DNA of 64,000 nucleotides from Elainellaceae cyanobacterium (GTDB taxonomy: Bacteria; Cyanobacteriota; Cyanobacteriia; CAZCXK01). The position numbers and the translations under genes are program-made. The DNA is taken from assembly GCA_051117335.1 (NCBI GenBank), contig JBNPEB010000035.1:67-64066 (forward strand). Direction: 5' to 3'. Shown in pieces: positions 2,040-23,985 of this stretch (positions are counted from its first letter, which is position 1; each line of letters starts with the position of its first letter). Under the pieces are notes generated by a model. It worked only from the letters and a program-made list of their open reading frames with translations, had not been told where the DNA came from and searched no databases.

Positions 2040-2084
2040 AGGTATTTGCAACCTCCAGTGAATGATCTGCGATGAGGACGGCTT

Positions 2085-2187
2085 ATACCAATTCTCGATT
2101 TTAGATTTGCGATTTTGGATTGACGGCCACCAGTCTTGCAGGGGTTCTAGCCTGCTCATTTGTAGCCTTACTTCGAAGAATTGGTAT
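2085..2187. mobile_element. 103-bp MITE-like element, copy 1
   Basis: Perfect 11-bp terminal inverted repeats ATACCAATTCT/AGAATTGGTAT; related copies at 30840 and 34559. Confidence 0.75.
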
Positions 2188-2667
2188 TATTGATTGCCAC
2201 CGTCTGGAGATGCCCGTTGGTTAAGGTAGTGCGAGTGCTGATTTTTGAGAAGTAAACCCCGTATGACTGAGACGAGGCGATTTTTCGGCAGATGATGGTC
2301 TAGAGTAGGTCTAATGTGATAGGAACAAATCAAGGCACGAGACGGTCAAAAAGACTGACCTGAGATCGTGCAATACATTTGTTCACGATACATTTGCTCA
2401 CGGTTCTACTCCCTCCATTTACAGCGTTTAAATTAAGCAGTCCGGGAGAATAAAGGTGTTGGTTTGGAATTTAATGGGATATTGAGAAGTTTTTGAAGTG
2501 GTTAAAAACTTCTTCTCAAATACGTGTCGGTGAGTTAGCGAATTGGCCTTGTGGCAGTCAGTTGAAGTTATGTGACCGAGGAGACGATCCAAATCCTCGT
2601 TAAAATCGTATTAGGATTATCTCAACGTAATACTCTCTTTCCTGCCCCTTCGATGTGAATTAGTCTC

Positions 2668-3290: not shown

Positions 3291-3872
3291 TTATGACCTG
3301 AGATGCTCAGCCATGCTGCGTCCGGTGCGTCCAGTGACGATCCATAGAAGCGATCGCCCGATATCACGTGCGGTTTTAAGCCACGATTCATTGGGCTGGT
3401 CGGAAGGGACAGTTATAGACGTATAGGCGATGCCGTGACTGCCGAGCACAAAGAAGGCGATCGCCCGTGCTCTGGGCATGTGAAAGTCGGAGGTGATCAG
3501 ATAAAGATGCTGAATATTATGGTCTTGAAAGGTATGAACTAGGGTTGTGAAATTGGTCACGGTGTCGGTGGCGCGGCGATCGAGATAGAGGCAATCGAGA
3601 GGAATGCCTGCAGCTTGAAAGATAGTTTGAGCCTGGTAGTCATAGATGCCGCTGGAGATCCAGATGGGGAGAGTGGGATGATTTTTGGCAAACCGAGCGG
3701 TGAATTCTTCTCGACTCGCCCCTCCGCCAAGAGTGAAAATGGCTTGGGGTTGGGGAAATTGGGCATGAGCGATCGCCAGTCGGATGGAGATAAAGGGGAT
3801 GAGTAGAAGGGGAATGACGCTGATCAGCAGGAAGAGAATCCGACATTTATGCTTGCTTCGAGATCTCTTCAT
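3291..3872 (-). CDS. YdcF/DUF218 (ElyC/SanA-like) family protein, copy 1
   Basis: N-terminal TM helix, LGGG, DTVTNF, LITSDFHMPRA motifs. Confidence 0.85.
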   Translation of the reverse strand: MKRSRSKHKCRILFLLISVIPLLLIPFISIRLAIAHAQFPQPQAIFTLGGGASREEFTARFAKNHPTLPIWISSGIYDYQAQTIFQAAGIPLDCLYLDRRATDTVTNFTTLVHTFQDHNIQHLYLITSDFHMPRARAIAFFVLGSHGIAYTSITVPSDQPNESWLKTARDIGRSLLWIVTGRTGRSMAEHLRS

Positions 3873-4645
3873 ACGGTGGGACAGGTAGATGATTAGCCTC
3901 TACTAATCTAATCGAAAGTATGAGTTCTGCCAGCATACGTTGCAAGGCATAGTAGCTTCCATGCCAACCGTCGAGGATGCCGCCTTTGAGGATAAGGCAT
4001 TAGATAAGAATGATCAGAGGAGCGAGGGGCGTGTGTTTGCGGAGGCGATCGCTCCATCCCAATTCTGATGTGGGGGGTTTCCTGCAGCTTTTTGACTTCA
4101 AGGATGGCGTAGCGATCTTGTGCCCAGAGCCAGCGGGTCAGGGATTTGCGATCGTCGTGGTGGATGGGATGAGTCAACCGAGCTGATTGTCCTTTCACCG
4201 TTAGAAGCTGAGTATGTCCGTCGTCGATATAAATAGATTGATCTTTTCGGAATAAAGACTGACGGGGTGGCAGGATGGTGCCGCGCAGGGGTTTGCCAAA
4301 GACGCAATATTTGAAAGGTATGAAGTAGCCGTCGATTTCTGATGGTGGGAATAGTATTTTTAACTCGTGAATGAGTTCGTCGGTCAACACATAGTCTGTA
4401 TCGAGTGACAGTATCCATTCGGTTTGAATATGCTCAGTACCGTAGTTCCATTGATTGGCATGGGTATCAAAGGGACGTTGCAAGAGTTGAACCTGAGGAT
4501 AGCTCTTTAGAATATCGAGTGTTTCATCGGTACTGTCGCTATCGATGACGATGATTTGCGTTGCCCAGGTGAGTTTGTGCAGGGTGCGAGCAATGTTGGG
4601 GGCTTCATTGTAGGTGAGAATGAGCGGCGTGATGGCTTCCAGCAT
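3847..4645 (-). pseudogene. glycosyltransferase family 2 (WaaE/LgtF-like), frameshifted
   Basis: Paralog of 9541-10365. +1 shift at the G6 run 4072-4077; the shifted frame (SELGWSDRLRK..LAP..*CLILKGGILDGW) matches the paralog but has an in-frame TAA at 4000-4002. Confidence 0.8.
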
Positions 4646-4699
4646 GAGCTATGTTGAAGGTCTCCACTTGAGACGTTACTATCGAGTTGCATTGCCTTC

Positions 4700-4990
4700 T
4701 ATAGACGGTGATGAGCCATCTGTTCAACTTTCTGACCTTCGCGATCGCTCAGCAAAGTGTGTTGTGCTGAAGGATGTGAGCTAGCAGACCTATCAGGCGT
4801 TGCTGCGTGATTTAGGAAGTCATCGCTCGTCGCGGTTGACCTATGACCAAGGAGTTTTAGAGATCTTCATGCCGTCTGAACTGCATGAAATGATTAATCG
4901 GCTGTTGGCGTTGATGGCAACGGCATTGACCGATGAACTAGGCATGAAGATTAAGGGATATGGCTGTGGTTACGATATCGGTAGAATACC
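4700..4990 (+). pseudogene. truncated Uma2-family fragment
   Basis: VVLKDVS*QTYQALL..RLTYDQGVLEIFMPSELHE is a typical Uma2 N-terminus; in-frame TAG at 4782-4784 where W is expected; breaks off near 4968. Confidence 0.7.
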
Positions 4991-5049
4991 GTAGCAACCG
5001 TGCCATCTGTTGAGGATGTTATAGGTTCGAGTTTTGATTTGCTTGAGTA

Positions 5050-5292
5050 TTGATGGGGGGCACGATGACGGTTGAACAAACGATGATAGAGAAATTGAGG
5101 AGATTGCCGCCTGAACAACAACGGCAACTTCTGGACTTTGCTGAGTTTTTGTTGCAGAAGGTTGAACAAAAGGAGCTAAGCTCCAGAGTCGATTGGCGTA
5201 GTCCTTGCGTCGGTATGTGGCGCGATCGAGATGATCTAGAGGACAGTACTGCCTGGGTTCGACAATTACGACAGCAGGAGTGGAACAGGTAG
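5050..5292 (+). CDS. DUF2281-like putative antitoxin
   Basis: LRRLPPEQQRQLLDFAEFL helix plus GMWRDRDDL..WVRQLRQQEW tail typical of VapB-like partners; no intact toxin follows. Confidence 0.7.
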   Translation: MMGGTMTVEQTMIEKLRRLPPEQQRQLLDFAEFLLQKVEQKELSSRVDWRSPCVGMWRDRDDLEDSTAWVRQLRQQEWNR

Positions 5293-5394
5293 ATTGTCTC
5301 AATGCATTTTATCCCATTTGATAATTAACCTTGGTTGTAGATCAAATTCTAAGAAAAGCTTTTTTTATTGCAGCGGATGTCCTTTCAGTTCAAC

Positions 5395-5547
5395 CTACGC
5401 ATTAGAGCTTGACAGGGCTTGAAGCTTGCGATTCAAGATTGATTGGTAAACTTCGATCAGCTGAGATGCAATGTTGTCCCAGGTGTAGTTTTGCAGGATG
5501 AATTGACGGGCGTGTTCAGCACTGCTGTTCCGGCAGGAATCGCCCAT
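5395..5547 (-). pseudogene. 3' fragment of a GT4 glycosyltransferase (F1)
   Basis: MGD[SCRNSSAE]HARQFILQNYTWDNIASQLIEVYQSI aligns to the C-terminus of 11328-12518 (MGDRAHQFILEYYTWDKIASQLI). Confidence 0.75.
5515..5538. repeat. 24-nt HIP1-inserted element, family B, copy 1
   Basis: GTG[TTCAGCACTGCTGTTCCGGCAGGA]ATCGC; matching empty site GTGATCGC at 6412-6419. Confidence 0.85.
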
Positions 5548-5912
5548 TACCGATTCAGCCATGTTCCCAAAAATTCTACCTGGTTCATCATCTCTTCAGC
5601 GGACTTAATGGCTGCCAGTTTCAACACCCCTTTCATCTGATTGCCAACGGGTTCTGTTTGTTTGGCGAGTATGATTCCTGCATGAGTCTTTCCATTGGCT
5701 AACCAGGTGGAGTGTATTCGATAAAAATCTCGGACATTAAATGAGTAAATCACCCGTTGATTCTCCAGCGCCCACTCTAGTTGCTGTTCATCAGATCGTC
5801 CTTGCATATCCACTTCGAGCGTAGACGTAACATCAGCCCCCCGATTTCGCAAAGCTTGCAGGAGACGCTTACTAGTAGCATCCTCGTCTAAATAGAAGCG
5901 AATGACCGTCAT
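5547..5912 (-). CDS. DUF5615 family PIN-like toxin (VapC45-like)
   Basis: RFYLDED, SDEQQLEWA, RVIYSFNVRDF, HAGIIL motifs; ATGA overlap with the upstream DUF433 gene. Confidence 0.85.
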   Translation of the reverse strand: MTVIRFYLDEDATSKRLLQALRNRGADVTSTLEVDMQGRSDEQQLEWALENQRVIYSFNVRDFYRIHSTWLANGKTHAGIILAKQTEPVGNQMKGVLKLAAIKSAEEMMNQVEFLGTWLNR

Positions 5913-6202
5913 TGGACGGCAGAAGATGCTTGAGCTGAAAGCCTCTCATATTCTGCGGCTTCATTAGCCAAGTCCTGCTCAATGGCTTGCTGATTAGCGT
6001 AGTAATAGGCAAGAGCGGCATGAACTTGAGCCAGCGTTAAATGGCTTTTGTCTGACACAATATCGTCTGCGCTGTACCCCTGTTTATACAGAGCAACAAT
6101 TCGTCGTACAGATGTCCCAGTGCCTGCGACAATGGGTCGTCCATCTTGAATGTCGGAGGATGTTGTAATGAGACTGCCAATGTCAACAAAGGTTTGAGCC
6201 AT
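5909..6202 (-). CDS. DUF433 family antitoxin
   Basis: GRPIVAGTGTSV and LTLAQVHAALAYY motifs. Confidence 0.88.
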   Translation of the reverse strand: MAQTFVDIGSLITTSSDIQDGRPIVAGTGTSVRRIVALYKQGYSADDIVSDKSHLTLAQVHAALAYYYANQQAIEQDLANEAAEYERLSAQASSAVQ

Positions 6203-6294
6203 TGATTGATGCCGGAAAAACTCATCTCAAGTTTAGCGTTTGTTTGATGGCGCGATCGCCCTAAAAAGATCCCAGTCAATATCCCAGGTCAAAC

Positions 6295-6477
6295 TCAAGA
6301 TCCGACGGGTTTTGAAATAGTGGGCTGTTGCTTCAAGATGGATTGATAGACTTCGATGAGTTGGGCGGCGATTTTGTCCCAGGTGTAGTTTTCTAGGATG
6401 AATTGACGGGCGTGATCGCCCATTGCTTTTGCTTCTTCTGGATGTTTCTGGCAGTGGATTAATGCGTTGGCGATCGC
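6295..6477 (-). pseudogene. 3' fragment of a GT4 glycosyltransferase (F2)
   Basis: AIANALIHCQKHPEEAKAMGDHARQFILENYTWDKIAAQLIEVY aligns to the end of 11328-12518; homology starts at HIP1 6470-6477. Confidence 0.8.
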
Positions 6478-6496
6478 CCATGTGCTGATTAACTAA

Positions 6497-6922
6497 CTAT
6501 TTCGGAGGATGCCATCCCACTTCAGTCCAAAGTTTACGAGAGATCACCAACTCAGCACGATTCATCCGAAGTGTGATGATAGAGACTCGACCCACTGTTG
6601 TTTTTCCAAGCATAAGTGAACCGTCAGTACTCCATTCAAAATGGTCAACCCAGGCTTGCATCTGAGGATGAAACAGACGAACATCTTGCTGAGATTGGTC
6701 ATCAAATACAGAAATCCTAGCAGCCTTGTATAGGTTGCAATCCCAACAGGCCAAACACAGATTACGCTTCTCTGTTGTTCCTCCCAACAATTCCGGCACG
6801 ATATGGTCAACGGTCAGGCGAATACCTGAAATGTGTTGTTGAGTTTGGCAATACGCACAACGGGATCTAAACTGGGCGACAACTTCGGCACGAACTCCAT
6901 CTGGAATCCTGGATTTACTCAT
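6497..6922 (-). CDS. HNH endonuclease
   Basis: CAYC..DHIVP..GG..NLCLACWDCN motifs. Confidence 0.9.
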   Translation of the reverse strand: MSKSRIPDGVRAEVVAQFRSRCAYCQTQQHISGIRLTVDHIVPELLGGTTEKRNLCLACWDCNLYKAARISVFDDQSQQDVRLFHPQMQAWVDHFEWSTDGSLMLGKTTVGRVSIITLRMNRAELVISRKLWTEVGWHPPK

Positions 6923-7332
6923 GGAACATCAGCAAGTGAGGATATATCGTGACCTCGTTCAGCCAGAAAAGTCGCCGCCTTAGCCCGAACCATCATAATG
7001 TGGTTAAAATGCTTCGATAATATTTGCACTTGTTCAGATTCTTCTGGGGTCAACCCCTGGCGTTGCTGCTTTTCCAACAACTCCTGCATTAAATCATTTT
7101 CGTCTTCAGAAGCTTGGGATGTAGCCGCATTCCACAACTCTTCATCCGTGAGTAGTGTGAGTTGGTTTAAGCGATCGCCCATATCGGTAGCCAACTCTGC
7201 ATCCGTCATTAACGCAGTATTAATCAGACTAACCGTTTCTTCTTCCAACGGTCGATCCGATTTTTGGGCTAAATCAACCAGCCGTTGATAGATTGAATCA
7301 GGTAATCGTAACGTCAATGTTTGCCAAACCAT
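6919..7332 (-). CDS. RHH-like protein, putative partner/antitoxin of the HNH nuclease
   Basis: TLTLRLPDSIYQRL strand-helix N-terminus; ATGA overlap with the HNH gene. Confidence 0.6.
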   Translation of the reverse strand: MVWQTLTLRLPDSIYQRLVDLAQKSDRPLEEETVSLINTALMTDAELATDMGDRLNQLTLLTDEELWNAATSQASEDENDLMQELLEKQQRQGLTPEESEQVQILSKHFNHIMMVRAKAATFLAERGHDISSLADVP

Positions 7333-7399
7333 AGCCCTATATCTGCATCAATACTCAAATGAGTTTTATTATACCTTGACCCATTGCTGGGGTTTACGC

Positions 7400-7530
7400 C
7401 CTCGTTTTGCCTTCTAACGAACTCATCAAACATAGTAAAAAACTGAGTGGCGATCGCATCCCCAGGTGTAGTGTTCTAGAATGAACTGGCAGGCGCGTTC
7501 AGCACTGCTGTTCCGGTAGGAATCGCCCTC
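7400..7530 (-). pseudogene. 3' fragment of a GT4 glycosyltransferase (F3), frameshifted
   Basis: GD[SYRNSSAE]RACQFILEHYTW then +1 shift to DAIATQ; left boundary approximate. Confidence 0.7.
7498..7521. repeat. 24-nt HIP1-inserted element, family B, copy 2
   Basis: GCG[TTCAGCACTGCTGTTCCGGTAGGA]ATCGC; empty site GCGATCGC at 11439-11446 in the intact GT4. Confidence 0.85.
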
Positions 7531-7543
7531 TTCCCTCATCACT

Positions 7544-7830
7544 TCAGGTTCTAAACGATGCTCGCACCTGAGGATGAAGGCTCGCCCCGGTGCGCCCGGT
7601 CACGATCCACAACATCGATCGCCCGATGTCGCGGGAGACATGCCACAGGGTTTCGTTGGGTTGCTTGGAGGGAATGGGGACGGGGGTAGTGATGATGCCG
7701 CGACTGCCGAAGACAAAGGAAGCAATGGCCCCGTGCGCGACGCATATGAAAGTCGGAGGTGATGAGGTAGACGTGGTGGATGTGGCGATCGCCCAAGTCG
7801 CTGACGAGGGAGGTGAAGTTGGTGACGGTG
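7544..7830 (-). pseudogene. YdcF 3' half, copy 2, frameshifted
   Basis: TVTNFTSLVSDLGDRHIHHVYLITSDFHMRRAR, then an extra G and continuation FVFGSRGIITTPVPIPSKQPNETLW; closely similar to 8862-9488. Confidence 0.8.
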
Positions 7831-7835
7831 TTTTA

Positions 7836-8840
7836 TCAATTGTTGGGCGTACACAACTCCACAATTAGGCTATCAGAATCAATGCAGAGTGATTGGTCAA
7901 TAAGTTCTGCTACGGCCTTATTTCCTTCAATACTCAAATGGACACCATCATGAAAATAGCTTTCAACAACAGATGTTGGCAGATCTGACCAAGCGGCTTG
8001 AGTATCAATAATAGGAATGTTCAACTCTTCGAGAATGGATATAAACTCTTGTTTATATTCTGGAGTAGTTGTTTGAGGAATTAAATCTTCCCGATTAGGA
8101 GTAAAAAGAACGAGTATAGGCGTATTGTTATCAACCTGTGAAATAAGTTCTCTCAAATACTCCATATTTTTTGTAAATTTTGCATCGAGAGCAGAAGTAT
8201 TTAGAGTTTGTGGGGATGACTCAGTGGGTAAAAGTCTTGCCATTCTAGGTAACAGATAACGACTGATAACTTCCTGGGTTGCCAGCAATGGGCGAACATC
8301 TGGGTAGCCTGGATGCGTTCCTACGACTTCACTTGTACTCATCGGTTGATATAAGTCATGAGTCCCGATTTGGAGAATGATTGCATCGCTGTTAAATGTC
8401 CCAAATTTTTTGACATAGCCTAATTGATTACCAATGCCCCATGATCCCGCTGAGGCATTGAGTACTTCTGAGGAGTAATTCGAATCAGTAAAGTGCTCTT
8501 CTAAAACTTCTGAAATAGTGTGCTCATGACTGGTTAAGCTACCGCCATTGAGAACGGAATCACCGACCATCATTAATCGCAATGTCCCCTGTTGTTTGGC
8601 TTCAGTAATGGGTTCAGAGCGTTGAGAATATTGGTTATAGAGAATGCGACGGCCAAAACGTTTGAGATCTTGATTGGGCCGAAACCGATAACCTGTCTCT
8701 GAATCGGTTTGGCTTAACACGGGGTATCCAAATCCAAAGCCGAGTCTTAGAGCAATTTCACCAAATGCAGCAAAAAATATCACGGCAACAAGAACCCATT
8801 GCCAATGGTTGCGGGCAGTCTTCAATAATTTCATTATCAA
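7836..8840 (-). CDS. SGNH/GDSL hydrolase family protein
   Basis: GDS block I, NASAGSWG, GTHD and DGVH motifs; N-terminal TM helix. Confidence 0.88.
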   Translation of the reverse strand: MIMKLLKTARNHWQWVLVAVIFFAAFGEIALRLGFGFGYPVLSQTDSETGYRFRPNQDLKRFGRRILYNQYSQRSEPITEAKQQGTLRLMMVGDSVLNGGSLTSHEHTISEVLEEHFTDSNYSSEVLNASAGSWGIGNQLGYVKKFGTFNSDAIILQIGTHDLYQPMSTSEVVGTHPGYPDVRPLLATQEVISRYLLPRMARLLPTESSPQTLNTSALDAKFTKNMEYLRELISQVDNNTPILVLFTPNREDLIPQTTTPEYKQEFISILEELNIPIIDTQAAWSDLPTSVVESYFHDGVHLSIEGNKAVAELIDQSLCIDSDSLIVELCTPNN

Positions 8841-8861
8841 TCGTGTTAGAAGGTTATCGTG

Positions 8862-9488
8862 TCAGAGTTGAGGATGAAACCTGGCTCCAGTGCGCCCGGT
8901 GATGATCCACAGGATCGAGCGCCCAATGTCGCGTGAGATGTGCCAGAGGGTTTCGTTGGGGTGCTTGGAGGGAATGGCGACGGGGGTAGTGGTGATGCCG
9001 CGACTGCCGAAGACGAAGAAGGCGATCGCCCGTGCGCGTCGCATGTGAAAGTCGGAGGTGATGAGGTAGACGTGGTGAATGCGGCGATACGGGCTGCGCC
9101 CAGGCAAGCCAACGCGAAAGTCGCTGACGAGGGAGGTGAAGTTGGTGACGGTGTCGATGGCGCGACGATCGAGGTGGAGGCGACTTTCGGCAATGGCGGC
9201 GCGTTGAAAGATGGCTTTGGATTCTTGGGTGGGGGCACCGGAAGACACCCAAATGTCTAGATTGGGGTGTTGCTGTGCGAAGAGTGCAGTGAATCTTTCT
9301 CGTTCGGGAATTCCTCCAAGTGTAAGGATGGCTTGAGGAGTGGGGGGGTGGATCTGGGCGAGAATTAGGCGGACGGGAATGAAACTAATGAGAAGGACAA
9401 GGATGGTGATGGTAACGGCAACCCACATTTTGCGATAGATTTTTGGGCGGAGATACATCGAGATTCGGCTGATGAAAATGGTCAGCAT
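8862..9488 (-). CDS. YdcF/DUF218 family protein, copy 3, with an 8-aa insertion
   Basis: DTVTNF and LITSDFHMRRA motifs; VGLPGRSPY segment comes from the 24-nt element. Confidence 0.85.
   Translation of the reverse strand: MLTIFISRISMYLRPKIYRKMWVAVTITILVLLISFIPVRLILAQIHPPTPQAILTLGGIPERERFTALFAQQHPNLDIWVSSGAPTQESKAIFQRAAIAESRLHLDRRAIDTVTNFTSLVSDFRVGLPGRSPYRRIHHVYLITSDFHMRRARAIAFFVFGSRGITTTPVAIPSKHPNETLWHISRDIGRSILWIITGRTGARFHPQL
9089..9112. repeat. 24-nt HIP1-inserted element, family A, copy 1
   Basis: GCGAT[ACGGGCTGCGCCCAGGCAAGCCAA]CGC; empty GCGATCGC at the homologous position 7785-7792. Confidence 0.9.
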
Positions 9489-9540
9489 TCCGCTCTAGTC
9501 TATCTGTTGTGGGGGTTGAGTCACCAGGTATGGGTTTGGA

Positions 9541-10365
9541 TCAATGTTCCTTTGGGTGAGACTGAGAGGTATTAGAAAAATCAGACAGGTCAGCTTCGAT
9601 GAGCTTGATGGAGAGCAGTAGCTCAGCGAGCATTCGCTGAAATGCGTAATACCATCCGCGCCAGCCATCAAGAATGCCGCCCTTGAGGATGAGGCAGTAG
9701 AGCAAAATCACGAAGGGAGCCAGAATTTTTTGCTGTCGAATGCGATCGCCCCAACTCAATTCTTCTAAAGCTGTTTCTTGAAGCTTCTTCACTTCGAGCA
9801 CCATGTAGCGGTCTTGTGCCCAGAGCCAGCGAGAGAGGGGTTTGCGATCGTCGTGATGAATGGGGTTTGTTAAGGATGCTGATTGTCCTTTCACCACTAA
9901 AAGCTGGGTATGTCCGTCATCGATGTAGTGCGTTGGCTTGCCTGGGCGCAGCCCGTCTTGCCTTTTGCGGAAAAGGGCTTGGCGGGGGGGCAAAATGGTT
10001 CCACGAAGGGGTTTGCCAAAGACGCAGTATTTGAAGGGGATGAAGTAACCATCAACGTCTGGGGAGGGGGAGAGGGCTTTTAGTTCATTAATGAGAGCAT
10101 CGGTGAGGACATAATCGGCATCGAGGGAAAGCACCCACTCGGTTTGAACATGGTCAATGCCTGCGTTCCATTGGTTGGCGTGGGTGTCGAACTTTCGTTG
10201 AACGGTTTCGACTTGTGGATAGGTTTTGAGAATGTCGAGGGTGTTATCTGTGCTGAAGCTATCGATAACAACAATGCGATCAGCCCAGGAAATAGGTTCA
10301 AGAGTACGTCTAATGTTATGTGCTTCGTTATAGGTAAGAATTAAAGGTGTGATATTCTGGAGCAT
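9541..10365 (-). CDS. glycosyltransferase family 2 (WaaE/LgtF-like), with an 8-aa insertion
   Basis: ILTYNEA, VIDSFSTD, LSLDADY motifs; 8 extra residues relative to 3847-4645. Confidence 0.9.
   Translation of the reverse strand: MLQNITPLILTYNEAHNIRRTLEPISWADRIVVIDSFSTDNTLDILKTYPQVETVQRKFDTHANQWNAGIDHVQTEWVLSLDADYVLTDALINELKALSPSPDVDGYFIPFKYCVFGKPLRGTILPPRQALFRKRQDGLRPGKPTHYIDDGHTQLLVVKGQSASLTNPIHHDDRKPLSRWLWAQDRYMVLEVKKLQETALEELSWGDRIRQQKILAPFVILLYCLILKGGILDGWRGWYYAFQRMLAELLLSIKLIEADLSDFSNTSQSHPKEH
9933..9956. repeat. 24-nt element, family A, copy 2, in a degenerate HIP1
   Basis: GCG[TTGGCTTGCCTGGGCGCAGCCCGT]CTTGC inside the GT2 gene. Confidence 0.85.
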
Positions 10366-10391
10366 ATTTGATTCTGATATGAGCTGAAAGT

Positions 10392-11252
10392 TTATATATT
10401 CTCAGCAACCGCTAGTAACGAGAAGGTATTTCCATCAGTAGGAGCAAGGCTTCTACCATTTAAAAGGGTGAAATCATAAGATTTCAGAAAATCTAAAACC
10501 TTGTTCTTTTCAGAAAAACCATCTAAATAAACTGCTTTTATTCTTTTTTCATCAAAGAGAGATTTAGCTCCTCTTAACACATTAAGTTCTTGACCTTCAA
10601 CATCAATCTTCAGAATTAGAGAATCTCCATCAAAATTAAATTGATCGAGTCGTTTGCAAGAGACTCTTATGGATCGATCTTTATAATGGTATTTAGATGA
10701 GTTTTCCATAGTTGTGAAAACGTGAGAAGCTGTTCCATAAACAAATTCGAGTTCCCCTTCTTGATCTGATATGGCACAGTTGAAAGATTCGAATTCGTAT
10801 CTCTCTGCATTTCTATTCAATCTTTTATATGTATCTGGATTTGCTTCAAATGAATAAACTCTTAAGTTTTCAAATACTTTCTTATACCGGGAAAGTACTG
10901 ATGAGAATATACCTACATTTGCACCTATATCTACAAATGAGTCACCATCCTTTAGCAAAGCTGATAGATTTAGAAGGATAGAAACCTCATCGCGGAGAAG
11001 ACTACCCTTTCTACACATGTTTGACGCCCTTAAATATCCACTTTCTTTTATGGTGTGAATGTTAATCTTTAAGTCAAACAAATTTACTTTTGTATTCCTA
11101 TTGCCAAACATTATTCTTGATATCCACCATCTGACCGTTGGCTTTTTGTTATAAAACTTGTCAACAAACCACATTAAGCTCATAATCCTACCTCCATTGA
11201 TAATTGGAATTGTGACAACATTAAATAGTTGGTCAATAACCGACGAAATCAA
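10392..11252 (-). CDS. FkbM family methyltransferase
   Basis: FVDIGANVG, FEANP, LKIDVEGQE motifs; true start probably a downstream Met. Confidence 0.9.
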   Translation of the reverse strand: MISSVIDQLFNVVTIPIINGGRIMSLMWFVDKFYNKKPTVRWWISRIMFGNRNTKVNLFDLKINIHTIKESGYLRASNMCRKGSLLRDEVSILLNLSALLKDGDSFVDIGANVGIFSSVLSRYKKVFENLRVYSFEANPDTYKRLNRNAERYEFESFNCAISDQEGELEFVYGTASHVFTTMENSSKYHYKDRSIRVSCKRLDQFNFDGDSLILKIDVEGQELNVLRGAKSLFDEKRIKAVYLDGFSEKNKVLDFLKSYDFTLLNGRSLAPTDGNTFSLLAVAENI

Positions 11253-11327
11253 TGCTTTAGATCAGTGTTCCTAATAAGCAAATCGCTTGATTAAATATAA
11301 GTCCTAAAATGTCGGTTGTACTTTGAA

Positions 11328-12518
11328 TTAAATATAGAGATGAGGCAACTGTTTATTTTTGATAATAGCGTCGTAAGTTTTTATTAATTGAGATGCTATT
11401 TTGTCCCAGGTGTAGTATTCGAGTATGAACTGATGGGCGCGATCGCCCATTGCTTTAGCTTCGTCTGGAGTGCTGAGGCAATCAATCAGCGCTTTTGCAA
11501 TGGCGTCGGCATCGATATCGACAACGTGGGCAGCTTTCGCAAGCTTAGCTTCTGGGAAGTTGCATCCGGTAGTTATCACACAGGGAAGTCCTGAGGCCAT
11601 TCCTTCTAACATAGACATGCTAAACCCTTCAGAATAGGAGGGCGCGACGTAGAGATTTGCAGCGGCGAGGGCTGCATATTTGAGGTCTCCCGTGAGCATT
11701 CCGGTAAAGGTGACGGCATCCAGACAATTTGCTTTAGAAAAGTATTCTTTAGCTGTTGGGAGAAAGCCAATATTATCTTGTCCGGCAACGATGAGATGAG
11801 CCTTGGGAAACTGTTGATAAACAAGACCGAAGGCTTGAGCCAGGAGGTCAAGCCCTTTTTTGGGGTCAATGCGGCCTAAAAAGAGGATGAGCTGTTTACC
11901 TGATGTGGTTGGAAACCTCTGGAAGAAGAGATCGGGTGAGGGCAGAGTTTGAAAGTCTTCGGCGTGGATACCGTTTGGAATTTTGGTCAATGGGGGCTTC
12001 AGCTTAAGAGGTTGGATGCCTTCAGCTTCTTGAGTGGCAAGGACGTGGATGGTGCTGGCTGTTTGTAGGGTTGGCTGTTCGAGAAGTCGATAATAGAACT
12101 GCTTTTTCCAGGCTTTGTAGGATAAAGCCCAGGGTTCTAACATGCCACGGGGAGTAATGATGTAGGGGATATTTTGCCAGCGACAAAACCAGTGAGCAAG
12201 GGTGATGTTTAGGGAGAAGATAGCGTTGGTGTGAACCAGGTCGTAGTCTTTAATGTGATTCCAGAGCCAGGTCAGAAGGGATGGGCTAAGTTTATAGTCG
12301 CTGAAGGGCAGATAAGGAAAGTATTGGATTCGATACTGAGGGTAAGTAATCCATTGTTTGAGGGGAACGTTGAGAGCAACGGAGGTGTCGGCGTTGGTCG
12401 TTACGATATCGATGGAAATGCCGTGTTGTCCGGTGGCTTTTGCGAGTTCGAGGATGCTTTTGGAGGGGCCACCATAGCTAAGACCAACGGCTGGAAGAAT
12501 AATGAGTATTTTCATCAA
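11328..12518 (-). CDS. glycosyltransferase family 4
   Basis: FLGRIDPKKG and PSYSEGFSMSMLEGMASG motifs. Confidence 0.92.
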   Translation of the reverse strand: MMKILIILPAVGLSYGGPSKSILELAKATGQHGISIDIVTTNADTSVALNVPLKQWITYPQYRIQYFPYLPFSDYKLSPSLLTWLWNHIKDYDLVHTNAIFSLNITLAHWFCRWQNIPYIITPRGMLEPWALSYKAWKKQFYYRLLEQPTLQTASTIHVLATQEAEGIQPLKLKPPLTKIPNGIHAEDFQTLPSPDLFFQRFPTTSGKQLILFLGRIDPKKGLDLLAQAFGLVYQQFPKAHLIVAGQDNIGFLPTAKEYFSKANCLDAVTFTGMLTGDLKYAALAAANLYVAPSYSEGFSMSMLEGMASGLPCVITTGCNFPEAKLAKAAHVVDIDADAIAKALIDCLSTPDEAKAMGDRAHQFILEYYTWDKIASQLIKTYDAIIKNKQLPHLYI

Positions 12519-12529
12519 TAGAAAAGCAA

Positions 12530-13156
12530 TTACTGATGAGGCTTAAAGAAGAACGCGGTATCGGTTACGCCATTACTTGTCCAGATTCTTCGCCAACCCT
12601 GTGTTTTTTCTAAAAATACTTTCCAATGCTCTGATGCAGGTTCCATTTGATGGGTTCTCGAATTTGGCGAGTAAGAGTGACAAGGCAAGAACCAGTTTGC
12701 ATTATCCAGAACTATAAATCCTCCACTCTTGACCTTACTTATAGCTTTCAGAGCACATAAATCACGCTGAAAGTAACCATCTACTAATGCAAAATTAAAA
12801 CTTTCATCCTCAACACTATTGACTACATTGACGTATTCTTGAGGGTCAACTATCAAGTGGTAGTCTCAATTACTCAGTTTTACCTCTTTTGCCTTTTGCG
12901 TTACATGATTATACCAATCGGTGTTTGACTCAATGCTCATGAGATGGTGAATGCGTTGAGCGAACCAAATCGTGCTACGACCAGATCCCCACTCTAGACC
13001 GACATCATCTTTTTGAAGGTAAGTAGAGAGAATGCTAATAGCTTGCGATGTTAACCAAGGTTCATCAGGATGAGTGTTCTCATAAATTGCTAAAGCTATT
13101 CGATTATAAATATACTTAGGACTCCAGTGATTAATTTTTCGCATTCTTTCATTCAC
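12530..13156 (-). pseudogene. class I SAM-dependent methyltransferase split by an in-frame TGA
   Basis: LEWGSGRST motif in the 5' ORF, LVDG..R and LDNA in the 3' ORF; both in one frame across TGA at 12866-12868 (SN*DYHL). Confidence 0.8.
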
Positions 13157-20929: not shown

Positions 20930-21307
20930 TTTTAGTTCTCCTGATTTATAGCTCTTACCGAGTCAAAAACTTTTATCAAAAGTCTGTGAAATCCAAAAGG
21001 GCAATAGAAGCATTGCCTAGACTTTGATAAGAAATCAACATGACCTATTAGTGCAGTACTTAGTAGCAACATGTTTTATCCGCTCTGCTCCGCAGATAAG
21101 TATGATATGAACTTCACCCATACGGCCTTTCATCCCATACAGCAAAACGCCTCTCATCATCTCTGTTCAACCTTTTGAATCAGCCATCAGGACAATGGGC
21201 GATACGCACACAGCGCAGGTAAATTAACGCCACAATTCACCCGCAACATTCTTAGTTCTCATCCCAAAAATCTAAGGATGTCGCCATTCCGTCTCCATGA
21301 ACACGAC

Positions 21308-21334
21308 AAAAAAAGAGTGAGCACTGCTCACTCT
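21308..21334 (-). terminator. intrinsic terminator in R1
   Basis: AGAGTGAGC-agt-GCTCACTCT stem followed by a T-run on the minus strand, downstream of the PIN gene. Confidence 0.75.
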
Positions 21335-21499
21335 CTAATCAAGAGGTTTGATGATGACCCTAACCATGCTCCATCAGCGCATGACCCAAAATCTAGATTA
21401 AGAGCCATAGCGTTCCAAACAGAAAACGGACACCCGTCAACCGAGACAATAAACCTGTAGACAGTCCTGACCCCATCGAAACCGTGAAGATTCAGGGCG

Positions 21500-21523
21500 T
21501 TGGCTTGCCTGGGCGCAGCCCGT
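21500..21523. repeat. 24-nt HIP1-inserted element, family A, copy 3
   Basis: GCG[TTGGCTTGCCTGGGCGCAGCCCGT]ATCGC at the right edge of R1. Confidence 0.9.
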
Positions 21524-21546
21524 ATCGCCCCTTCAAAACCCACCTT

Positions 21547-21936
21547 TCACAGTAACTTTCCATCAAGCTCCTCATACTTGGAAAACTGACGATCAACTGA
21601 CATTAAATCGCAATCGTGAGCGATCGCCGTTGCAATAATCAATCGATCTTGTGGATCTCGGTGATGCTCTGGAAGGTCTACCGCAATACTTGCAATTTGT
21701 GGAGTGATAGACAGGAGAGTAACATCAGAACCCTCAAGTGCTCTTTCAAACCAGGTTATTCGATCAATCGACAACTCGATGCGCCCATGACCGTCTAGCC
21801 AAGCAACCTCAAAACAACTAATAGCAGACACTGCCACAGCATCGCTCGACTCAATCTGTTCCTTTCGCGCTGCTCCAAGCTTCGCAATGTCTTCGTTAAT
21901 CCACCACAGCCAGATGTGAGTATCCAAAACAATCAT
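21547..21936 (-). CDS. VapC-like PIN toxin (PIN1)
   Basis: MIVLDTHIWLW, SAISCFE, HRDPQDRLIIATA motifs; ATGA overlap with the upstream antitoxin. Confidence 0.9.
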   Translation of the reverse strand: MIVLDTHIWLWWINEDIAKLGAARKEQIESSDAVAVSAISCFEVAWLDGHGRIELSIDRITWFERALEGSDVTLLSITPQIASIAVDLPEHHRDPQDRLIIATAIAHDCDLMSVDRQFSKYEELDGKLL

Positions 21937-22214
21937 TGAGGAAGATTCCAATCACTTTCCGGAATCGTATCAATGATGTCGCCTAAAGTTGTCATCTTTC
22001 CCGCAATATCAGAGTGAGGAGCACGTCGCTTAGTTGTTGGGGCACTCACAGTGTCAATCACCAGAAAAATAGCCTCAAACTGCTTATTCGGTGGTAACTT
22101 AGGGACATGCTTTAAGTTCCCCGATGCATCTGTTTCCAGCATCAACCGTTCTGCATCCATTGCTGAGTCTCCCATTAACCTGGCTTCTCTACGCTTATAG
22201 CACAGTCCCAGCAA
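21933..22214 (-). CDS. putative VapB-like antitoxin AT1
   Basis: Small gene coupled to PIN1; true start probably MGDSA or MDAER. Confidence 0.7.
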   Translation of the reverse strand: MLGLCYKRREARLMGDSAMDAERLMLETDASGNLKHVPKLPPNKQFEAIFLVIDTVSAPTTKRRAPHSDIAGKMTTLGDIIDTIPESDWNLPQ

Positions 22215-22300
22215 TCATTCACACAGACGCAATACACACCACGTGTAGATAGGTCACGCCACGGATTACTCGCAACTTTCTTAGCTCTCATCATGCACAC

Positions 22301-22560
22301 CTGAGGATGCCGCCATTCCGTCTTCATGAACACGACGAAAAAAAAGAGTGAGCACTGCTCACTCCTTGATAAAGAGGTTTGATGATGACCCTAACCCTGC
22401 CCCATCAGCGCATGACCCAAACTCTAGATTAAGAGCCGTAGAGTTCCAAACAGAAAGCGTACACCACTCAACCTAGACAATAAACCTGTAGACAATCCTA
22501 ACCCCATCGAAACCATGAAGATTTAGGGACTTTTACTCGCCTGGGCATCACCCGTATCGC
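22301..22560. repeat. non-coding repeat R, copy 2, ending in a degenerate family A element
   Basis: Alignment to R1; GCCTGGGC..CCCGTATCGC at 22539-22560; terminator-like hairpin 22338-22364. Confidence 0.88.
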
Positions 22561-22604
22561 CCCTCTTGGCCTCCACTCACCCTACACACGACTTGGCAAA
22601 CTTT

Positions 22605-22661
22605 ACGAAGAAAAAAGGGTTGTGGGCGCGCAACGCGCGCCCACAACCCTTTTTTCTTCGT
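22605..22661. terminator. perfect 27-bp inverted repeat, probable bidirectional terminator / REP-like palindrome
   Basis: ACGAAGAAAAAAGGGTTGTGGGCGCGC-aac-GCGCGCCCACAACCCTTTTTTCTTCGT. Confidence 0.75.
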
Positions 22662-22742
22662 TGCAATTGGAGAAGTTTGCCAAGTCGTACCTACAAACTC
22701 TGAGGGTGAATCATCAGGATGGTGTTATCAGAAGAGAGGGCG

Positions 22743-22766
22743 TTGGCTTGCCTGGGCGCAGCCCGT
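22743..22766. repeat. 24-nt HIP1-inserted element, family A, copy 5
   Basis: GCG[TTGGCTTGCCTGGGCGCAGCCCGT]ATCGC. Confidence 0.9.
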
Positions 22767-22798
22767 ATCGCTCTATATCTTTCCTTGAATCCCACCAC

Positions 22799-23173
22799 CT
22801 ACAACCGTTCAAGCAGTGGATCAAAAAGCTTTAAATCAGGAATCCACCGGAAATCATCCGTATTGTGGGTCAGTAGCGTTAGGTCATACCGGAGAGCAGT
22901 TCCCGCAACCAATGAATCTCCTAGTGACAATTTACGCTGTTGTCTCAGTTCAATCGCTTGAGTCGCAACATCATGCGTAACGGGCAGAATATCCGTAACG
23001 TCAAAAAATTCCTCAAAAAATTGGCGATCGCAGTCACTCAGCTTGTGATATCCAAAGACCTCAACATAGCTGACTAGAGACACTGAAGGAGCATGCTCAG
23101 CAATAAAATCCCGTAACACTTCGTTTTGAGGCTGAGCCGCATAAATAATGAGATTACTATCCAGCAACATCAC
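22799..23173 (-). CDS. VapC-like PIN toxin (PIN2)
   Basis: LLDSNLIIY, SYVE, LGDSLVAGTAL, THNTDDF motifs; ATGA overlap with AT2. Confidence 0.9.
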   Translation of the reverse strand: MMLLDSNLIIYAAQPQNEVLRDFIAEHAPSVSLVSYVEVFGYHKLSDCDRQFFEEFFDVTDILPVTHDVATQAIELRQQRKLSLGDSLVAGTALRYDLTLLTHNTDDFRWIPDLKLFDPLLERL

Positions 23174-23505
23174 GATTCACGATCAGGTAGCCCTCGCTCC
23201 TGTCGGATATCCCGTTGCCACATGAATGGATCAACATCACTAAATGTTCCTCCCTCAGCAACTTTAGCCAGTGCAGCAGCCATTGCCTTGCCCCGGTTTA
23301 AGGATGAGATAGAACGCTCCTCAGGTTGCATGGCAGGCACATCACCAACAACCAGAAAAATAGCCTCCAATTGCTTATTCGGTGGCAACTTAGGAACATG
23401 CCTTAAATTTCCCGATGCATCTGTTTCCAGAATTAACCGTTCTGCATCCATTGCTGAGTTTCCCATCCACATGGCTTCTCTAATCTTATCGCACAATCCC
23501 AGCAA
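23170..23505 (-). CDS. putative VapB-like antitoxin AT2
   Basis: Shares the MDAER..EAIFLV segment with AT1/AT3 but has a DPFMWQRDIRQERGLP tail. Confidence 0.7.
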   Translation of the reverse strand: MLGLCDKIREAMWMGNSAMDAERLILETDASGNLRHVPKLPPNKQLEAIFLVVGDVPAMQPEERSISSLNRGKAMAAALAKVAEGGTFSDVDPFMWQRDIRQERGLPDRES

Positions 23506-23638
23506 TCATTCGCATAGACACAGTACACACAACGTGTGGATACATCATTACATCGCGAACACTACCACATAAATCAAAGCTTCTTTTTTCACCCCGTAAT
23601 TGGCAACTTACGAACCTGTACAGGTTTATCCTCTACCG

Positions 23639-23881: not shown

Positions 23882-23985
23882 TTGGAAACGAATATACAGT
23901 GCCTATTCGAAATGTTAGCTGATCTCAGAGCCTCCAATCGACTCCATAATGCACCCGCATTCGTCTTATGTCTCATCACGAACAC

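What the first reader, a model, noticed from the sequence alone, without database searches (positions are those of the whole stretch)
5395..7830. Integrase-free cassette stack: glycosyltransferase 3' ends alternate with different TA-like modules and break at HIP1
Seen, reading the minus strand: ydcF 3' half, GT4 3' end F3, RHH+HNH pair, GT4 3' end F2, DUF433+DUF5615 pair, GT4 3' end F1. All three fragments match the end of the intact GT4 (11328-12518) but differ from it and from each other. Homology of F2 begins at HIP1 6470-6477; F1 and F3 begin at the ATG-GGC-GAT HIP1 site, which in both carries a 24-nt insert. No integrase or transposase is present in the window. Known: elements that integrate in a gene 3' end leave duplicated 3' ends, and HIP1 has been proposed as a recombination substrate, though its function is unresolved. 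Inference: serial capture of cassettes by recombination at HIP1, using the GT4 tail as a landing pad; an integron-like array without attC. Caveat: F1 and F3 use the same ancestral site, so they are not independent.
Basis: partly seen in the sequence, partly recalled or inferred. Interest (0 to 1): 0.78.

Follow-up and report, generated by a model that had tools for sequence, protein, structure and literature searches.

The report
Gene-tail and toxin-antitoxin stack joined at HIP1
In a cyanobacterial sugar-polymer gene cluster, leftover ends of a glycosyltransferase gene alternate with toxin-antitoxin gene pairs, and several joints lie exactly in the abundant 8-base HIP1 palindrome, which looks like natural evidence that HIP1 serves as a crossover point rather than a new integron-like machine.

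Summary
On the minus strand a ydcF 3' half is followed by three GT4 C-terminal remnants: F3 (~7548-7384), F2 (6477-6295) and F1 (5547-5395). They alternate with an RHH-like/HNH pair and a DUF433/DUF5615 pair. No integrase or transposase was found among ORFs of at least 140 aa in 1-42 kb.

Related loci place the stack in a conserved cyanobacterial cluster, GT4b-GT4-[variable]-GT2-ydcF. The GT4|GT2 joint of this cluster is a recurrent insertion hotspot. Comparable tail stacks occur in a MAG (L002), a metagenomic lineage (L067-72) and Anabaena (L021).

The same two-gene modules occur elsewhere in another order and in unrelated contexts. Where both parental sequences are available, the crossover lies inside a HIP1 shared by both. 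This holds for four joints:
- HNH end|F2
- DUF5615 end, with three different right-hand partners
- F2 end|DUF433 leader
- L067 tail-end×tail-start

About half of all junctions are not at HIP1. An unselected end-point test was not significant.

In the window every cluster-gene remnant is a pseudogene, while the TA genes are intact.

Best reading: these are scars of repeated allele displacement in an HGT hotspot, joined and pruned by HIP1×HIP1 microhomology recombination. It is not a dedicated integron-like system. The 24-nt inserts are SDR5-type mini-elements.

The parts
11328..12518 (-). Intact GT4 glycosyltransferase (tail class iii), with HIP1 at the MGDR codons (11439-11446)
   Evidence: Pfam Glycos_transf_1/Glyco_transf_4. 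Orthologues at 55-65% identity in 30+ cyanobacterial loci.
10392..11252 (-). FkbM-type methyltransferase inserted between GT4 and GT2, without tail duplication
   Evidence: tblastn 71% to L001, same position.
9541..10365 (-). GT2 copy A (intact), carrying a 24-nt family-A mini-insert at 9933-9956
8862..9488 (-). DUF218/ydcF copy A (intact), carrying a family-A mini-insert at 9089-9112
   Evidence: Pfam DUF218.
7836..8840 (-). SGNH/GDSL hydrolase, the last gene of the current functional allele
   Evidence: Pfam Lipase_GDSL_2.
7549..7832 (-). ydcF' 3' half, a frameshifted pseudogene. It is 97% identical to the L002 ydcF over 100 nt. The junction with SGNH is not at a HIP1.
7384..7548 (-). F3, a GT4 tail remnant of class ii (WDAIATQ type). 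It has a 24-nt insert at 7498-7521 in split HIP1#2, HIP1#3 at 7450-7457 and a 1-nt frameshift.
6919..7383 (-). RHH-like antitoxin candidate (ORF 6919-7332) with its own upstream region containing TATAAT. The module's left edge lies at about 7384-7397.
   Evidence: Homology edges against L055, L056 and L063. Weak RelB-like match.
6497..6922 (-). HNH endonuclease (PtuB/IscB-like HNH domain), overlapping its partner gene by 4 nt
   Evidence: Pfam HNH; PADLOC and NCBIfam. 209 homologues, always found with the same partner gene.
6470..6477 (.). Junction HIP1 (J_a). To its left the sequence matches the HNH module as in L063. To its right it matches the GT4 tail as in L002, L067 and L001.
6295..6469 (-). 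F2, a GT4 tail remnant of class i. It has a degenerate HIP1#2 (GCGATCAC, 6418-6425) and a variable C-terminus with a terminator-like hairpin at 6271-6288.
6252..6259 (.). Junction HIP1 (J_f, tail HIP1#4). To its right lies the DUF433 leader shared with L002 and L067. To its left lies a different tail end.
5909..6202 (-). DUF433 antitoxin candidate
   Evidence: Pfam. 88-90% aa identity in L002 and L067.
5547..5912 (-). DUF5615 PIN-like toxin candidate
   Evidence: Pfam. 85% aa identity in L067. Also found outside GT clusters in L073, L076 and L088.
5515..5550 (.). Junction J_b: TAATGGGCGAT + 24-nt SDR-type insert (5515-5538) + CACGCC. In L067 the same spot is an intact HIP1 joined to RHH'. In L002 it is joined to a class iii tail.
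5395..5514 (-). F1, a GT4 tail remnant of class i
5050..5292 (+). DUF2281/VapB-like orphan antitoxin, convergent with F1. In L046 it is followed by an Uma2 gene that is missing here.
3908..4994 (-). GT2' (3908-4645, frameshifted at the C-terminus, about 70% identical to copy A), preceded by an Uma2 fragment (4800-4994, + strand). Collinear with Uma2-GT2 of L067.
3291..3872 (-). DUF218/ydcF copy B, the end of the displaced older allele
   Evidence: Pfam.

Best explanation
The stack is a pile of recombination scars in a horizontal-transfer hotspot. It is not a cassette-capturing machine.

The host is an Elainellaceae-like cyanobacterium. Its polysaccharide cluster has the widely conserved core GT4b-GT4-[variable]-GT2-ydcF. 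Small selfish two-gene modules (DUF433/DUF5615, RHH-like/HNH, DUF2281/Uma2) accumulate at the GT4|GT2 joint.

New alleles of this segment arrived repeatedly by transfer. Each was anchored by homology upstream or in the GT4 tail, and its other end was joined illegitimately. The previous allele was therefore pushed downstream rather than cleanly replaced.

The displaced copies (GT4 bodies, ydcF', GT2') then decayed. They were pruned by deletions between short identical sequences, above all HIP1 (GCGATCGC, often ATGGGCGATCGC). HIP1 is the commonest 8-12-nt identity shared by unrelated cyanobacterial DNA.

What survives is of two kinds. First, the TA-like modules, which resist loss. Second, the last 100-190 nt of each GT4 copy, which carries the start signals of the next gene.

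Shown: the anatomy, the recurrence in other genomes, the mobility of the modules, HIP1 inside several two-parent junctions, and decay of all non-TA remnants.
Inferred: the order of events, the one-sided (homology-facilitated illegitimate) mode of integration, addiction as the reason the TA pairs persist, and a passive (microhomology) rather than enzymatic role for HIP1.
For: 1. Conserved order GT4b-GT4-[0-7 kb variable]-GT2-ydcF in about 40 loci.

2. Extra 5'-truncated tails occur in several other loci:
- L002: intact GT4 with an F2-like tail, DUF433, truncated DUF5615, a class iii tail, then GT2.
- L067-72: two different DUF433/DUF5615 pairs alternating with tails, then RHH'-HNH'.
- L021: Uma2 genes alternating with tails.
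- L022, L030 and L039.

3. The modules also sit in unrelated contexts.

4. Two-parent junctions lie inside HIP1:
- HNH end as in L063 × GT4 tail as in L002.
- DUF5615 end joined to F1 (window), RHH' (L067) or a class iii tail (L002), each starting ATGGGCGATCGC.
- F2 end|DUF433 leader at 6252-6259.
- L067 tail HIP1#4 × HIP1#1.

5. The mosaic switch in the L067 fragment falls at HIP1#2. Segment 1 matches the resident L067 GT4 at 30/50 and segments 2-3 at 77/78 (Fisher 6e-9). Against the L002 GT4 the figures are 47/50 and 60/78.

6. Curated tally: 7 of 14 junctions at HIP1 against 2.7% expected (P 3e-8).

7. All cluster-gene remnants are frameshifted or truncated, while the window's TA genes are intact.

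8. A second array at 21.2-24.2 kb has the same design. Its repeats R1 and R2 begin at a HIP1 occupied by a 24-nt insert.

9. Literature: a HIP1-flanked 352-bp smtB excision, HIP1-promoted excision also in E. coli, and a Chi-like effect of HIP1 in transformation (PMC13756078, PMC4390886, 10.1101/2024.09.10.611283).
Against: - Half of the junctions are not at HIP1.
- The unselected end-point test is not significant (2/23 within 3 nt, P 0.13). The curated tally is post hoc, and some junctions in related genomes may share ancestry.
- No strain-level comparison was possible, and no reads support the window's own assembly.
- One-sided integration that produces a duplication rather than a deletion is not the commonest outcome reported for homology-facilitated illegitimate recombination (my knowledge of de Vries and Wackernagel 2002).
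- Toxicity or addiction of these pairs is untested. TA genes have decayed in L002 and L067.
Confidence: 0.6

Rival explanations
1. True HIP1-bounded cassettes. Units of the form [HIP1 - GT4 tail - TA pair - HIP1] are excised as circles by HIP1×HIP1 recombination. This may be helped by a HIP1-cutting activity, the same one that inserts the 21-24-nt mini-elements at GCG^ATCGC. The circles re-integrate by homologous crossover in a resident GT4 tail. The result would be an integrase-free, attC-free analogue of an integron array.
For: - The unit F2-DUF433-DUF5615 is bounded by HIP1 on both sides, in the window (6470-6477 and 5540-5547) and in L067 (7510 and 8370). RHH'-HNH' in L067 is bounded by HIP1 8370 and 8782.
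- The unit order differs between genomes.
- The modules are co-oriented.
- Mini-inserts sit in junction HIP1s of F1, R1 and R2, and in the F3 HIP1 about 20-27 nt inside its junction.
- Elhai 2015 notes that directed cutting at HIP1 could explain SDR5 insertion.
Against: - No candidate enzyme is known, and no circles were observed.
- The left edge of the RHH-HNH module and the ydcF' joints are not at HIP1.
- FkbM sits between GT4 and GT2 without any tail duplication.
- Mini-inserts at junctions may only reflect tolerance in non-coding DNA.
- HIP1-promoted excision works equally in E. coli (Robinson 1997, cited). That argues for passive short-repeat recombination.
Confidence: 0.17
2. Nuclease-driven homing. 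A cassette-encoded nuclease (HNH, PIN-like DUF5615 or Uma2) cuts the conserved GT4 tail, or HIP1, in chromosomes lacking the cassette. Repair from a cassette-bearing copy co-converts the donor tail plus cassette and leaves the resident tail downstream. Free-standing homing endonuclease genes in phage and mitochondria behave this way.
For: - Every module next to a tail encodes a nuclease-fold protein.
- The pattern of a foreign tail, then an ORF, then a displaced resident tail matches the Allomyces atp6 case (my knowledge of Paquin et al. 1994).
- Cyanobacteria are polyploid, which would favour copy-to-copy conversion.
Against: - DUF5615/PIN domains are typically RNases paired with antitoxins.
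- The same modules sit in many unrelated sites without tails.
- No target-site conservation is shown beyond HIP1.
- The partner genes look like antitoxins.
Confidence: 0.08
3. Assembly artefact. A metagenome assembler chained alternative strain alleles of one locus through shared tail sequence.
For: - The window appears to come from a contig of about 64 kb.
- No public run holds the stack, so it could not be checked.
Against: - The three tails share at most about 20 nt of exact identity and are only 72-87% alike. That is too little to mis-join at usual k-mer sizes.
- Analogous stacks are assembled independently in at least 5 samples for the L067 lineage, and in L002 and L021.
Confidence: 0.05
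4. Local tandem duplication of a [tail + TA] unit by unequal crossing-over, followed by divergence and gene replacement, with no foreign DNA.
For: - L021 t1 and t2 with their Uma2 genes are clearly tandem duplicates.
- The L067 tail and fragment are 77/78 identical downstream of HIP1#2.
Against: - The window's tails fall into three allele classes, each with its closest relative in other genomes. F3 resembles L067, F2 resembles the L002 GT4, and the GT4 tail resembles L002 t2.
- The intervening modules are unrelated to each other.
- ydcF' is 97% identical to the L002 ydcF but 82% to its neighbour copy.
Confidence: 0.05

Closest known systems
HIP1-flanked illegitimate recombination (smtB 352-bp excision in Synechococcus PCC 6301, Gupta 1993; HIP1-promoted excision, Robinson 1997; plasmid recombination in PCC 7002, Akiyama 1998)
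   Same: The crossover lies inside a HIP1 present in both partners, and one HIP1 is left at the joint. No dedicated recombinase gene lies nearby.
   Different: Here the joints link unrelated modules and gene tails across several genomes and genera, building and pruning a multi-unit stack. The earlier cases were a single laboratory deletion or plasmid events.
Integron / chromosomal superintegron cassette arrays
   Same: A co-oriented series of small genes, many of them TA pairs, separated by a repeated boundary element. Unit order differs between relatives.
   Different: There is no IntI, attI or attC. The boundary element is a diverged gene 3' end plus an 8-bp palindrome. The remnants are pseudogenes of displaced alleles, and half the joints lack HIP1.
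Tandem accretion of integrative islands at gene or tRNA 3' ends
   Same: The 3' end of the target gene is repeated between successive inserts.
   Different: Those repeats are short, near-identical att sites made by an integrase carried in each island. Here the tails are 100-190 nt, 72-87% alike, from different alleles, and no integrase is present.
Homology-facilitated illegitimate recombination in natural transformation (de Vries and Wackernagel 2002; Prudhomme 2002)
   Same: One end is anchored by homology and the other is joined at a 3-12-nt microhomology. This explains foreign segments abutting truncated resident genes.
   Different: It has not been demonstrated in cyanobacteria for this locus. 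Here the microhomology is repeatedly the same motif, and the outcome is stacking as well as replacement.
Free-standing homing endonuclease genes that bring a foreign gene 3' end and displace the resident one (e.g. Allomyces atp6)
   Same: The order is intact gene with a foreign tail, then a nuclease ORF, then the displaced resident tail as a pseudogene.
   Different: The ORFs here are paired like TA systems and occur widely away from any tail. No cleavage specificity is known.
SDR5 small dispersed repeats of Nostocaceae (Elhai 2008)
   Same: The 24-nt inserts in F1 and F3, and the 21-nt insert in the L021 tails, sit between the 3rd and 4th base of HIP1 (GCG^ATCGC on one strand) and keep the reading frame.
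   Different: The window's elements are 24 nt, have different sequences, and occur in a non-heterocystous Elainellaceae-like genome. SDR-like repeats were reported absent outside Nostocaceae (PMC5861425).

Membership tests
Integron | IntI tyrosine recombinase gene next to the array | tested here: not met
   Pfam on all ORFs of at least 140 aa in 1-42 kb shows no integrase or recombinase domain.
Integron | attC imperfect inverted repeat at each cassette end | tested here: not met
   No inverted repeats of at least 12 nt at unit edges in 5200-7950. The edges are HIP1 octamers or have no motif.
Integron | Co-oriented cassettes whose order varies between relatives | tested here: met
   All units lie on the minus strand. 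L067 has tail-DUF433-DUF5615-RHH'-HNH', whereas the window has RHH-HNH-tail-DUF433-DUF5615.
Integrase-made tandem islands at a gene 3' end | An integrase in each element and short near-identical att repeats | tested here: not met
   No integrase is present. The tails are 72-87% identical over 68-86 nt.
HIP1×HIP1 illegitimate recombination | Junction inside a HIP1 that is present at that position in both parental sequences, with one copy retained | tested here: met
   Met for J_a (L063 × L002), J_b (three right-hand partners), J_f and J_k. Not met for about 7 other junctions.
HIP1×HIP1 illegitimate recombination | Junctions closer to HIP1 than random positions | tested here: inconclusive
   Unselected HSP ends: 2/23 within 3 nt against 2.7% expected, P 0.13. 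Curated two-sided junctions: 7/14, P 3e-8, but chosen post hoc.
Type II toxin-antitoxin module | Two small adjacent co-directional genes with overlapping stop and start | tested here: met
   6919-7332/6497-6922 and 5909-6202/5547-5912 each overlap by 4 nt. The pairing is conserved in all homologous loci.
Type II toxin-antitoxin module | Recognisable toxin and antitoxin domains | tested here: inconclusive
   DUF5615 (PIN-like), DUF433 and HNH pass the Pfam thresholds. The RHH-like partner has only a sub-threshold RelB-like hit, E 0.012. There are no PADLOC hits for the DUF433/DUF5615 pair.
Type II toxin-antitoxin module | Toxicity neutralised by the partner | not testable with these tools
   Needs expression assays.
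SDR5-type mini-element (for the 24-nt inserts) | Precise insertion between bases 3 and 4 of HIP1 | tested here: met
   F3 reads GGCGAT^24 nt^CGCGCC on the minus strand, which is GCG^ATCGC on the plus strand. F1 is the same, with CAC after the insert. L002 and R1/R2 show this for family A.
SDR5-type mini-element (for the 24-nt inserts) | Dispersed multi-copy family in the genome | tested here: inconclusive
   Family B has only the 2 copies in the window and none in 88 loci. Family A has at least 4 copies in the window, one in L002, and many contigs in a soil metagenome.

The most novel reading that the evidence does not exclude
HIP1 octamers act as the recombination sites of an integrase-free cassette system. 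Units made of a gene-tail anchor plus a TA pair are cut out and rejoined at HIP1. The agent may be the same unknown activity that inserts SDR-type 21-24-nt mini-elements at GCG^ATCGC. The units re-enter by homology in the tail, so cyanobacteria would shuffle and stack small modules at conserved gene ends.
Probability: 0.18. Interest if true: 0.85.

Novelty: new variant of a known kind. Interest (0 to 1): 0.6.

Why it matters
The function of HIP1 has been open for some thirty years. Recent bench work points to a Chi-like or uptake role in transformation (10.1101/2024.09.10.611283; PMC13756078).

This locus and its relatives supply natural junctions for which both parental sequences can be named and the crossover lies inside HIP1. 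The question therefore becomes testable by comparative genomics and by simple transformation assays.

The locus also shows how toxin-antitoxin pairs pile up inside a polysaccharide gene cluster. It explains orphan 'mini-ORFs' that are really glycosyltransferase tails. And it flags the GT4|GT2 joint as a cross-genus hotspot.

Tried and rejected
Tools and look-ups that gave nothing:
No genome-wide search for further stacks or mini-element copies was possible.
- Exact-protein look-up of the window's HNH found no other assembly.
- No public run holds the stack. Laid contigs were fragments from relatives only, so the assembly could not be verified.
- The Elhai 2008 paper is not held.

Tests with negative or weak results:
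- The automated test of all blastn HSP ends against HIP1 was not significant. Gene-edge noise dominates it.
- The promoter scan found nothing on the minus strand.
- Rfam found nothing.
- The inverted-repeat scan found no attC-like structures.

Ideas dropped:
- F1-F3 as functional small proteins. This was rejected because L002's equivalent has in-frame stops and F3 is frameshifted.
- A degenerate HIP1 at the F3|RHH joint (GCGTAAAC, 4/8 matches). It is not convincing.
- Simple insertion of a TA pair into one GT4 tail. This was rejected because the tail region is present twice and from different allele classes.


Full report
**What is there**

The window is HIP1-rich cyanobacterial DNA, with 76 GCGATCGC in 64 kb against 1.5 expected. 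Its isocitrate dehydrogenase is 97% identical to that of an Elainellaceae MAG.

Read on the minus strand, bases ~21000 to ~700 form a polysaccharide cluster. It holds a pyruvyl transferase, a flippase, several GT4 genes, an FkbM methyltransferase, GT2, DUF218/ydcF and an SGNH hydrolase.

The finding sits inside this cluster. The order on the minus strand is:
- GT4 (11328-12518)
- FkbM
- GT2 (9541-10365)
- ydcF (8862-9488)
- SGNH (7836-8840)
- ydcF' 3' half (~7832-7549, frameshifted)
- F3
- RHH-like (6919-7332) and HNH (6497-6922)
- F2
- DUF433 (5909-6202) and DUF5615 (5547-5912)
- F1
- a convergent DUF2281/VapB-like gene (5050-5292) and an Uma2 fragment
- GT2' (3908-4645, frameshifted)
- ydcF (3291-3872)

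tblastn and DNA repeats confirm that F1, F2 and F3 are GT4 C-terminal remnants. They differ from the intact GT4 and from each other, at 72-87% identity.

No integrase or transposase domain occurs in ORFs of at least 140 aa within 1-42 kb. There are no attC-like inverted repeats and no Rfam match.

**The locus in other genomes**

I scanned one genome per species with an alignment of the four tails, which returned 54 loci. About 40 of them share the order GT4b-GT4-[0 to ~7 kb variable]-GT2-ydcF. The GT4|GT2 joint is therefore a general hotspot. In the simplest loci the GT4 stop overlaps the GT2 start (L016, L002 tail 2).

Extra 5'-truncated tails recur in several loci.

- L002 (a MAG, the closest relative found) has this order: an intact GT4 whose tail is 80% identical to F2 at nucleotide level, DUF433 (90% aa), DUF5615 with a 270-bp internal deletion, a second decayed tail of the same class as the window's intact GT4, then GT2 and ydcF. 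That ydcF is 97% identical to the window's ydcF'.
- L067-L072 are contigs of one lineage from at least five samples. Their order is: GT4, a different DUF433/DUF5615 pair, a tail fragment, the same DUF433/DUF5615 pair as in the window (85-88% aa), a truncated RHH'-HNH', a methyltransferase, Uma2 and GT2.
- L021 (Anabaena sp. FACHB-1237) has GT4, DUF29, Uma2, a tail, Uma2, a tail, a carbamoyltransferase, Uma2, a methyltransferase and GT2.
- L022, L030 and L039 carry single extra tails.

The RHH-like/HNH pair and the DUF433/DUF5615 pair also occur between unrelated housekeeping genes and in TA-rich islands. They are therefore independently mobile two-gene modules.

**The junctions**

For several joints both parental sequences can be named.

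- **J_a (window 6470-6477).** Left of the HIP1 the window follows the HNH module exactly as in L063/L065, which carry a HIP1 at the same place and then diverge. Right of the HIP1 it follows the GT4 tail as in L002, L067 and L001, whose intact genes have this HIP1 as the codons Ala-Ile-Ala.
- **J_b (DUF5615 stop, TAATGG + HIP1).** The same left side is joined to F1 in the window, to RHH' from its Met-Gly-Asp-Arg codons in L067 (the window's HIP1 7171-7178), and to a class iii tail in L002. All three right partners begin ATGGGCGATCGC.
- **J_f (6252-6259).** The DUF433 leader is shared with L002 and L067, but the tail end to its left differs.
- **J_k (L067 7510).** A tail-end remnant (…IDVYEGIMG) is joined at HIP1 to a tail start (AIAHALITCL…).

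The L067 fragment is also a mosaic that switches at HIP1#2. Its first segment matches the L002 GT4 at 47/50 and the resident L067 GT4 at only 30/50. The next segments match the resident GT4 at 77/78.

The L021 tails start exactly at HIP1#1, and the L030 tail starts inside HIP1#2.

Other junctions are not at HIP1:
- SGNH|ydcF' (7832)
- ydcF'|F3 (between 7569 and 7548)
- F3|RHH module (7384-7397; the left edge of the module is defined by L055, L056 and L063)
- the internal deletions in L002 and L067
- the tails of L022 and L039

**Statistics, stated plainly**

An unselected test took every blastn alignment end in 5300-7900. It gave 2 of 23 clusters within 3 nt of an intact HIP1, against 2.7% for random positions (P 0.13). 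Many of those ends are simply gene edges of diverged homologues.

A curated list of rearrangement junctions with evidence on both sides gives 7 of 14 at HIP1 (P 3e-8 at 2.7%; still 9e-4 if the chance rate is set at 13%). This list was chosen post hoc, and some events may share ancestry.

I regard HIP1 involvement as real for a subset of the joints, not as a rule.

**The 24-nt inserts**

F1 and F3 carry TCCT(G/A)CCGGAACAGCAGTGCTGAA exactly at GCGAT^CGC. On the other strand that is GCG^ATCGC. This is the insertion point described for the SDR5 mini-repeat of Nostocaceae (PMC4390886).

The insert is better conserved (23/24) than its flanks (29/37). The binomial P is 0.02 and the Fisher P is 0.06. 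It may therefore have entered twice, or have been homogenised.

The Anabaena tails in L021 carry a 21-nt insert at the same HIP1.

A second 24-mer (family A) sits in ydcF, in GT2, in L002's tail HIP1#4, and at the start of repeats R1 and R2 of a second array.

**The second array**

At 21.2-24.2 kb three copies of a 228-300-nt element alternate with PIN-type TA pairs. R1 and R2 begin at a HIP1 occupied by family A. R3 is the natural downstream region of the gene at 24170-24544, whose last codons hold an intact HIP1. This is the same design built on a different anchor.

**Interpretation**

In the window every remnant of a cluster gene is a pseudogene (ydcF', F1-F3, GT2'), while the TA genes are intact.

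The remnants belong to three tail classes, each with its nearest relative in a different genome:
- F1 and F2 with the L002 GT4
- F3 with L067
- the intact GT4 with L002's decayed tail

This argues for repeated arrival of foreign alleles of the GT4…GT2-ydcF segment. Each displaced its predecessor rather than cleanly replacing it. Decay and pruning followed.

Joints between unrelated sequences at an 8-12-nt identity are what short-repeat illegitimate recombination produces, and HIP1 is by far the commonest such identity in these genomes. HIP1-flanked excision is documented (Gupta 1993, as cited in PMC13756078) and works in E. coli too (Robinson 1997, as cited in PMC4390886). A Chi-like effect of HIP1 in transformation has been reported (10.1101/2024.09.10.611283).

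The tails probably persist because they carry the start region of the next gene. In L002 the GT2 start codon lies inside the tail's last codons. The TA pairs probably persist because they resist loss. Both points are inferences.

**Rivals**

- A real HIP1-bounded cassette system (circles excised at HIP1 and re-entering by tail homology) is not excluded. Two units are HIP1-bounded on both sides in two genomes, and unit order differs between genomes. However, there is no enzyme, no circle, and too many non-HIP1 joints.
- Nuclease-driven homing is suggested by the nuclease folds of the inserted genes, but it lacks any direct support.
- An assembly artefact is unlikely, because the tails share at most ~20 nt of exact identity and similar stacks are assembled independently elsewhere. 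The window itself could not be checked with reads.

**Limits**

I could not search the window's own genome for further stacks or mini-element copies, and I could not compare close strains.

Noticed in passing
window 9089-9112, 9933-9956, 21500-21523, 22743-22766 (degenerate ~22531-22555); L002 5459-5490: A 24-nt element (core GGCTTGCCTGGGCGCAGCC, found in either orientation) is inserted in HIP1 sites. It adds 8 codons to the intact ydcF and GT2. In a soil metagenome 11-13 contigs end on either side of it, so it is multi-copy in relatives. It looks like an SDR5-type mini-element in a non-heterocystous lineage, where such repeats were reported absent.
   Followed up: partly
L021 8100-8160 and 9390-9450 (Anabaena sp. 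FACHB-1237): Both GT4 tail remnants carry the 21-nt insert TCCTAGGTCGCGCTGCGCTAT at GGGCGAT^CGC. The intact GT4 of the same locus has a plain HIP1 there. This is probably SDR5 itself.
   Followed up: no
window 21222-24163: A second stack lies here. Three copies of a 228-300-nt element (R1-R3, 64-88% alike) alternate with antitoxin+PIN pairs and a DUF433 gene. R1 and R2 start at a HIP1 holding the family-A insert. R3 follows the gene at 24170-24544, whose tail has an intact HIP1 (24205).
   Followed up: partly
window 5050-5292 (+) and L046 175-1491: The DUF2281/VapB-like gene is followed by an Uma2 nuclease gene in L046, but that partner is missing in the window. This suggests a DUF2281-Uma2 pair behaving like a TA module. 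Uma2 matches the PADLOC candidate defence family PDC-S03.
   Followed up: partly
window 3847-4645 and 7544-7864: GT2' has a C-terminal frameshift. ydcF' has two 1-nt frameshifts, one of them at the position where the intact copy has HIP1 9022-9029.
   Followed up: partly
L028 (Anaerolineae MAG) 8048-12775: A Chloroflexi contig carries SGNH-GT4-FkbM-GT2 followed by a DUF433/DUF5615 pair (44-47% aa identity) in reverse orientation. The cluster and its association with this TA family cross phyla.
   Followed up: no
window 2080-2189, 30838-30951, 34557-34666: A ~110-nt repeat (94% identity between two of the copies, in inverted orientation) lies near gene starts, outside the arrays.
   Followed up: no
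L002 5915-5950: At the DUF5615|tail joint the motif AATGGGCG(T/A)T is present twice in tandem (TAATGGGCGTTAATGGGCGATCGC). This is a 10-nt duplication at the same GCGAT^CGC position where the window has its 24-nt insert.
   Followed up: no
L009 8984-11772; L044 and L045 ~10900-11990: Some genomes hold full tandem duplicates of GT4 (L009) or of ydcF (L044, L045). These could be intermediates before pruning.
   Followed up: no
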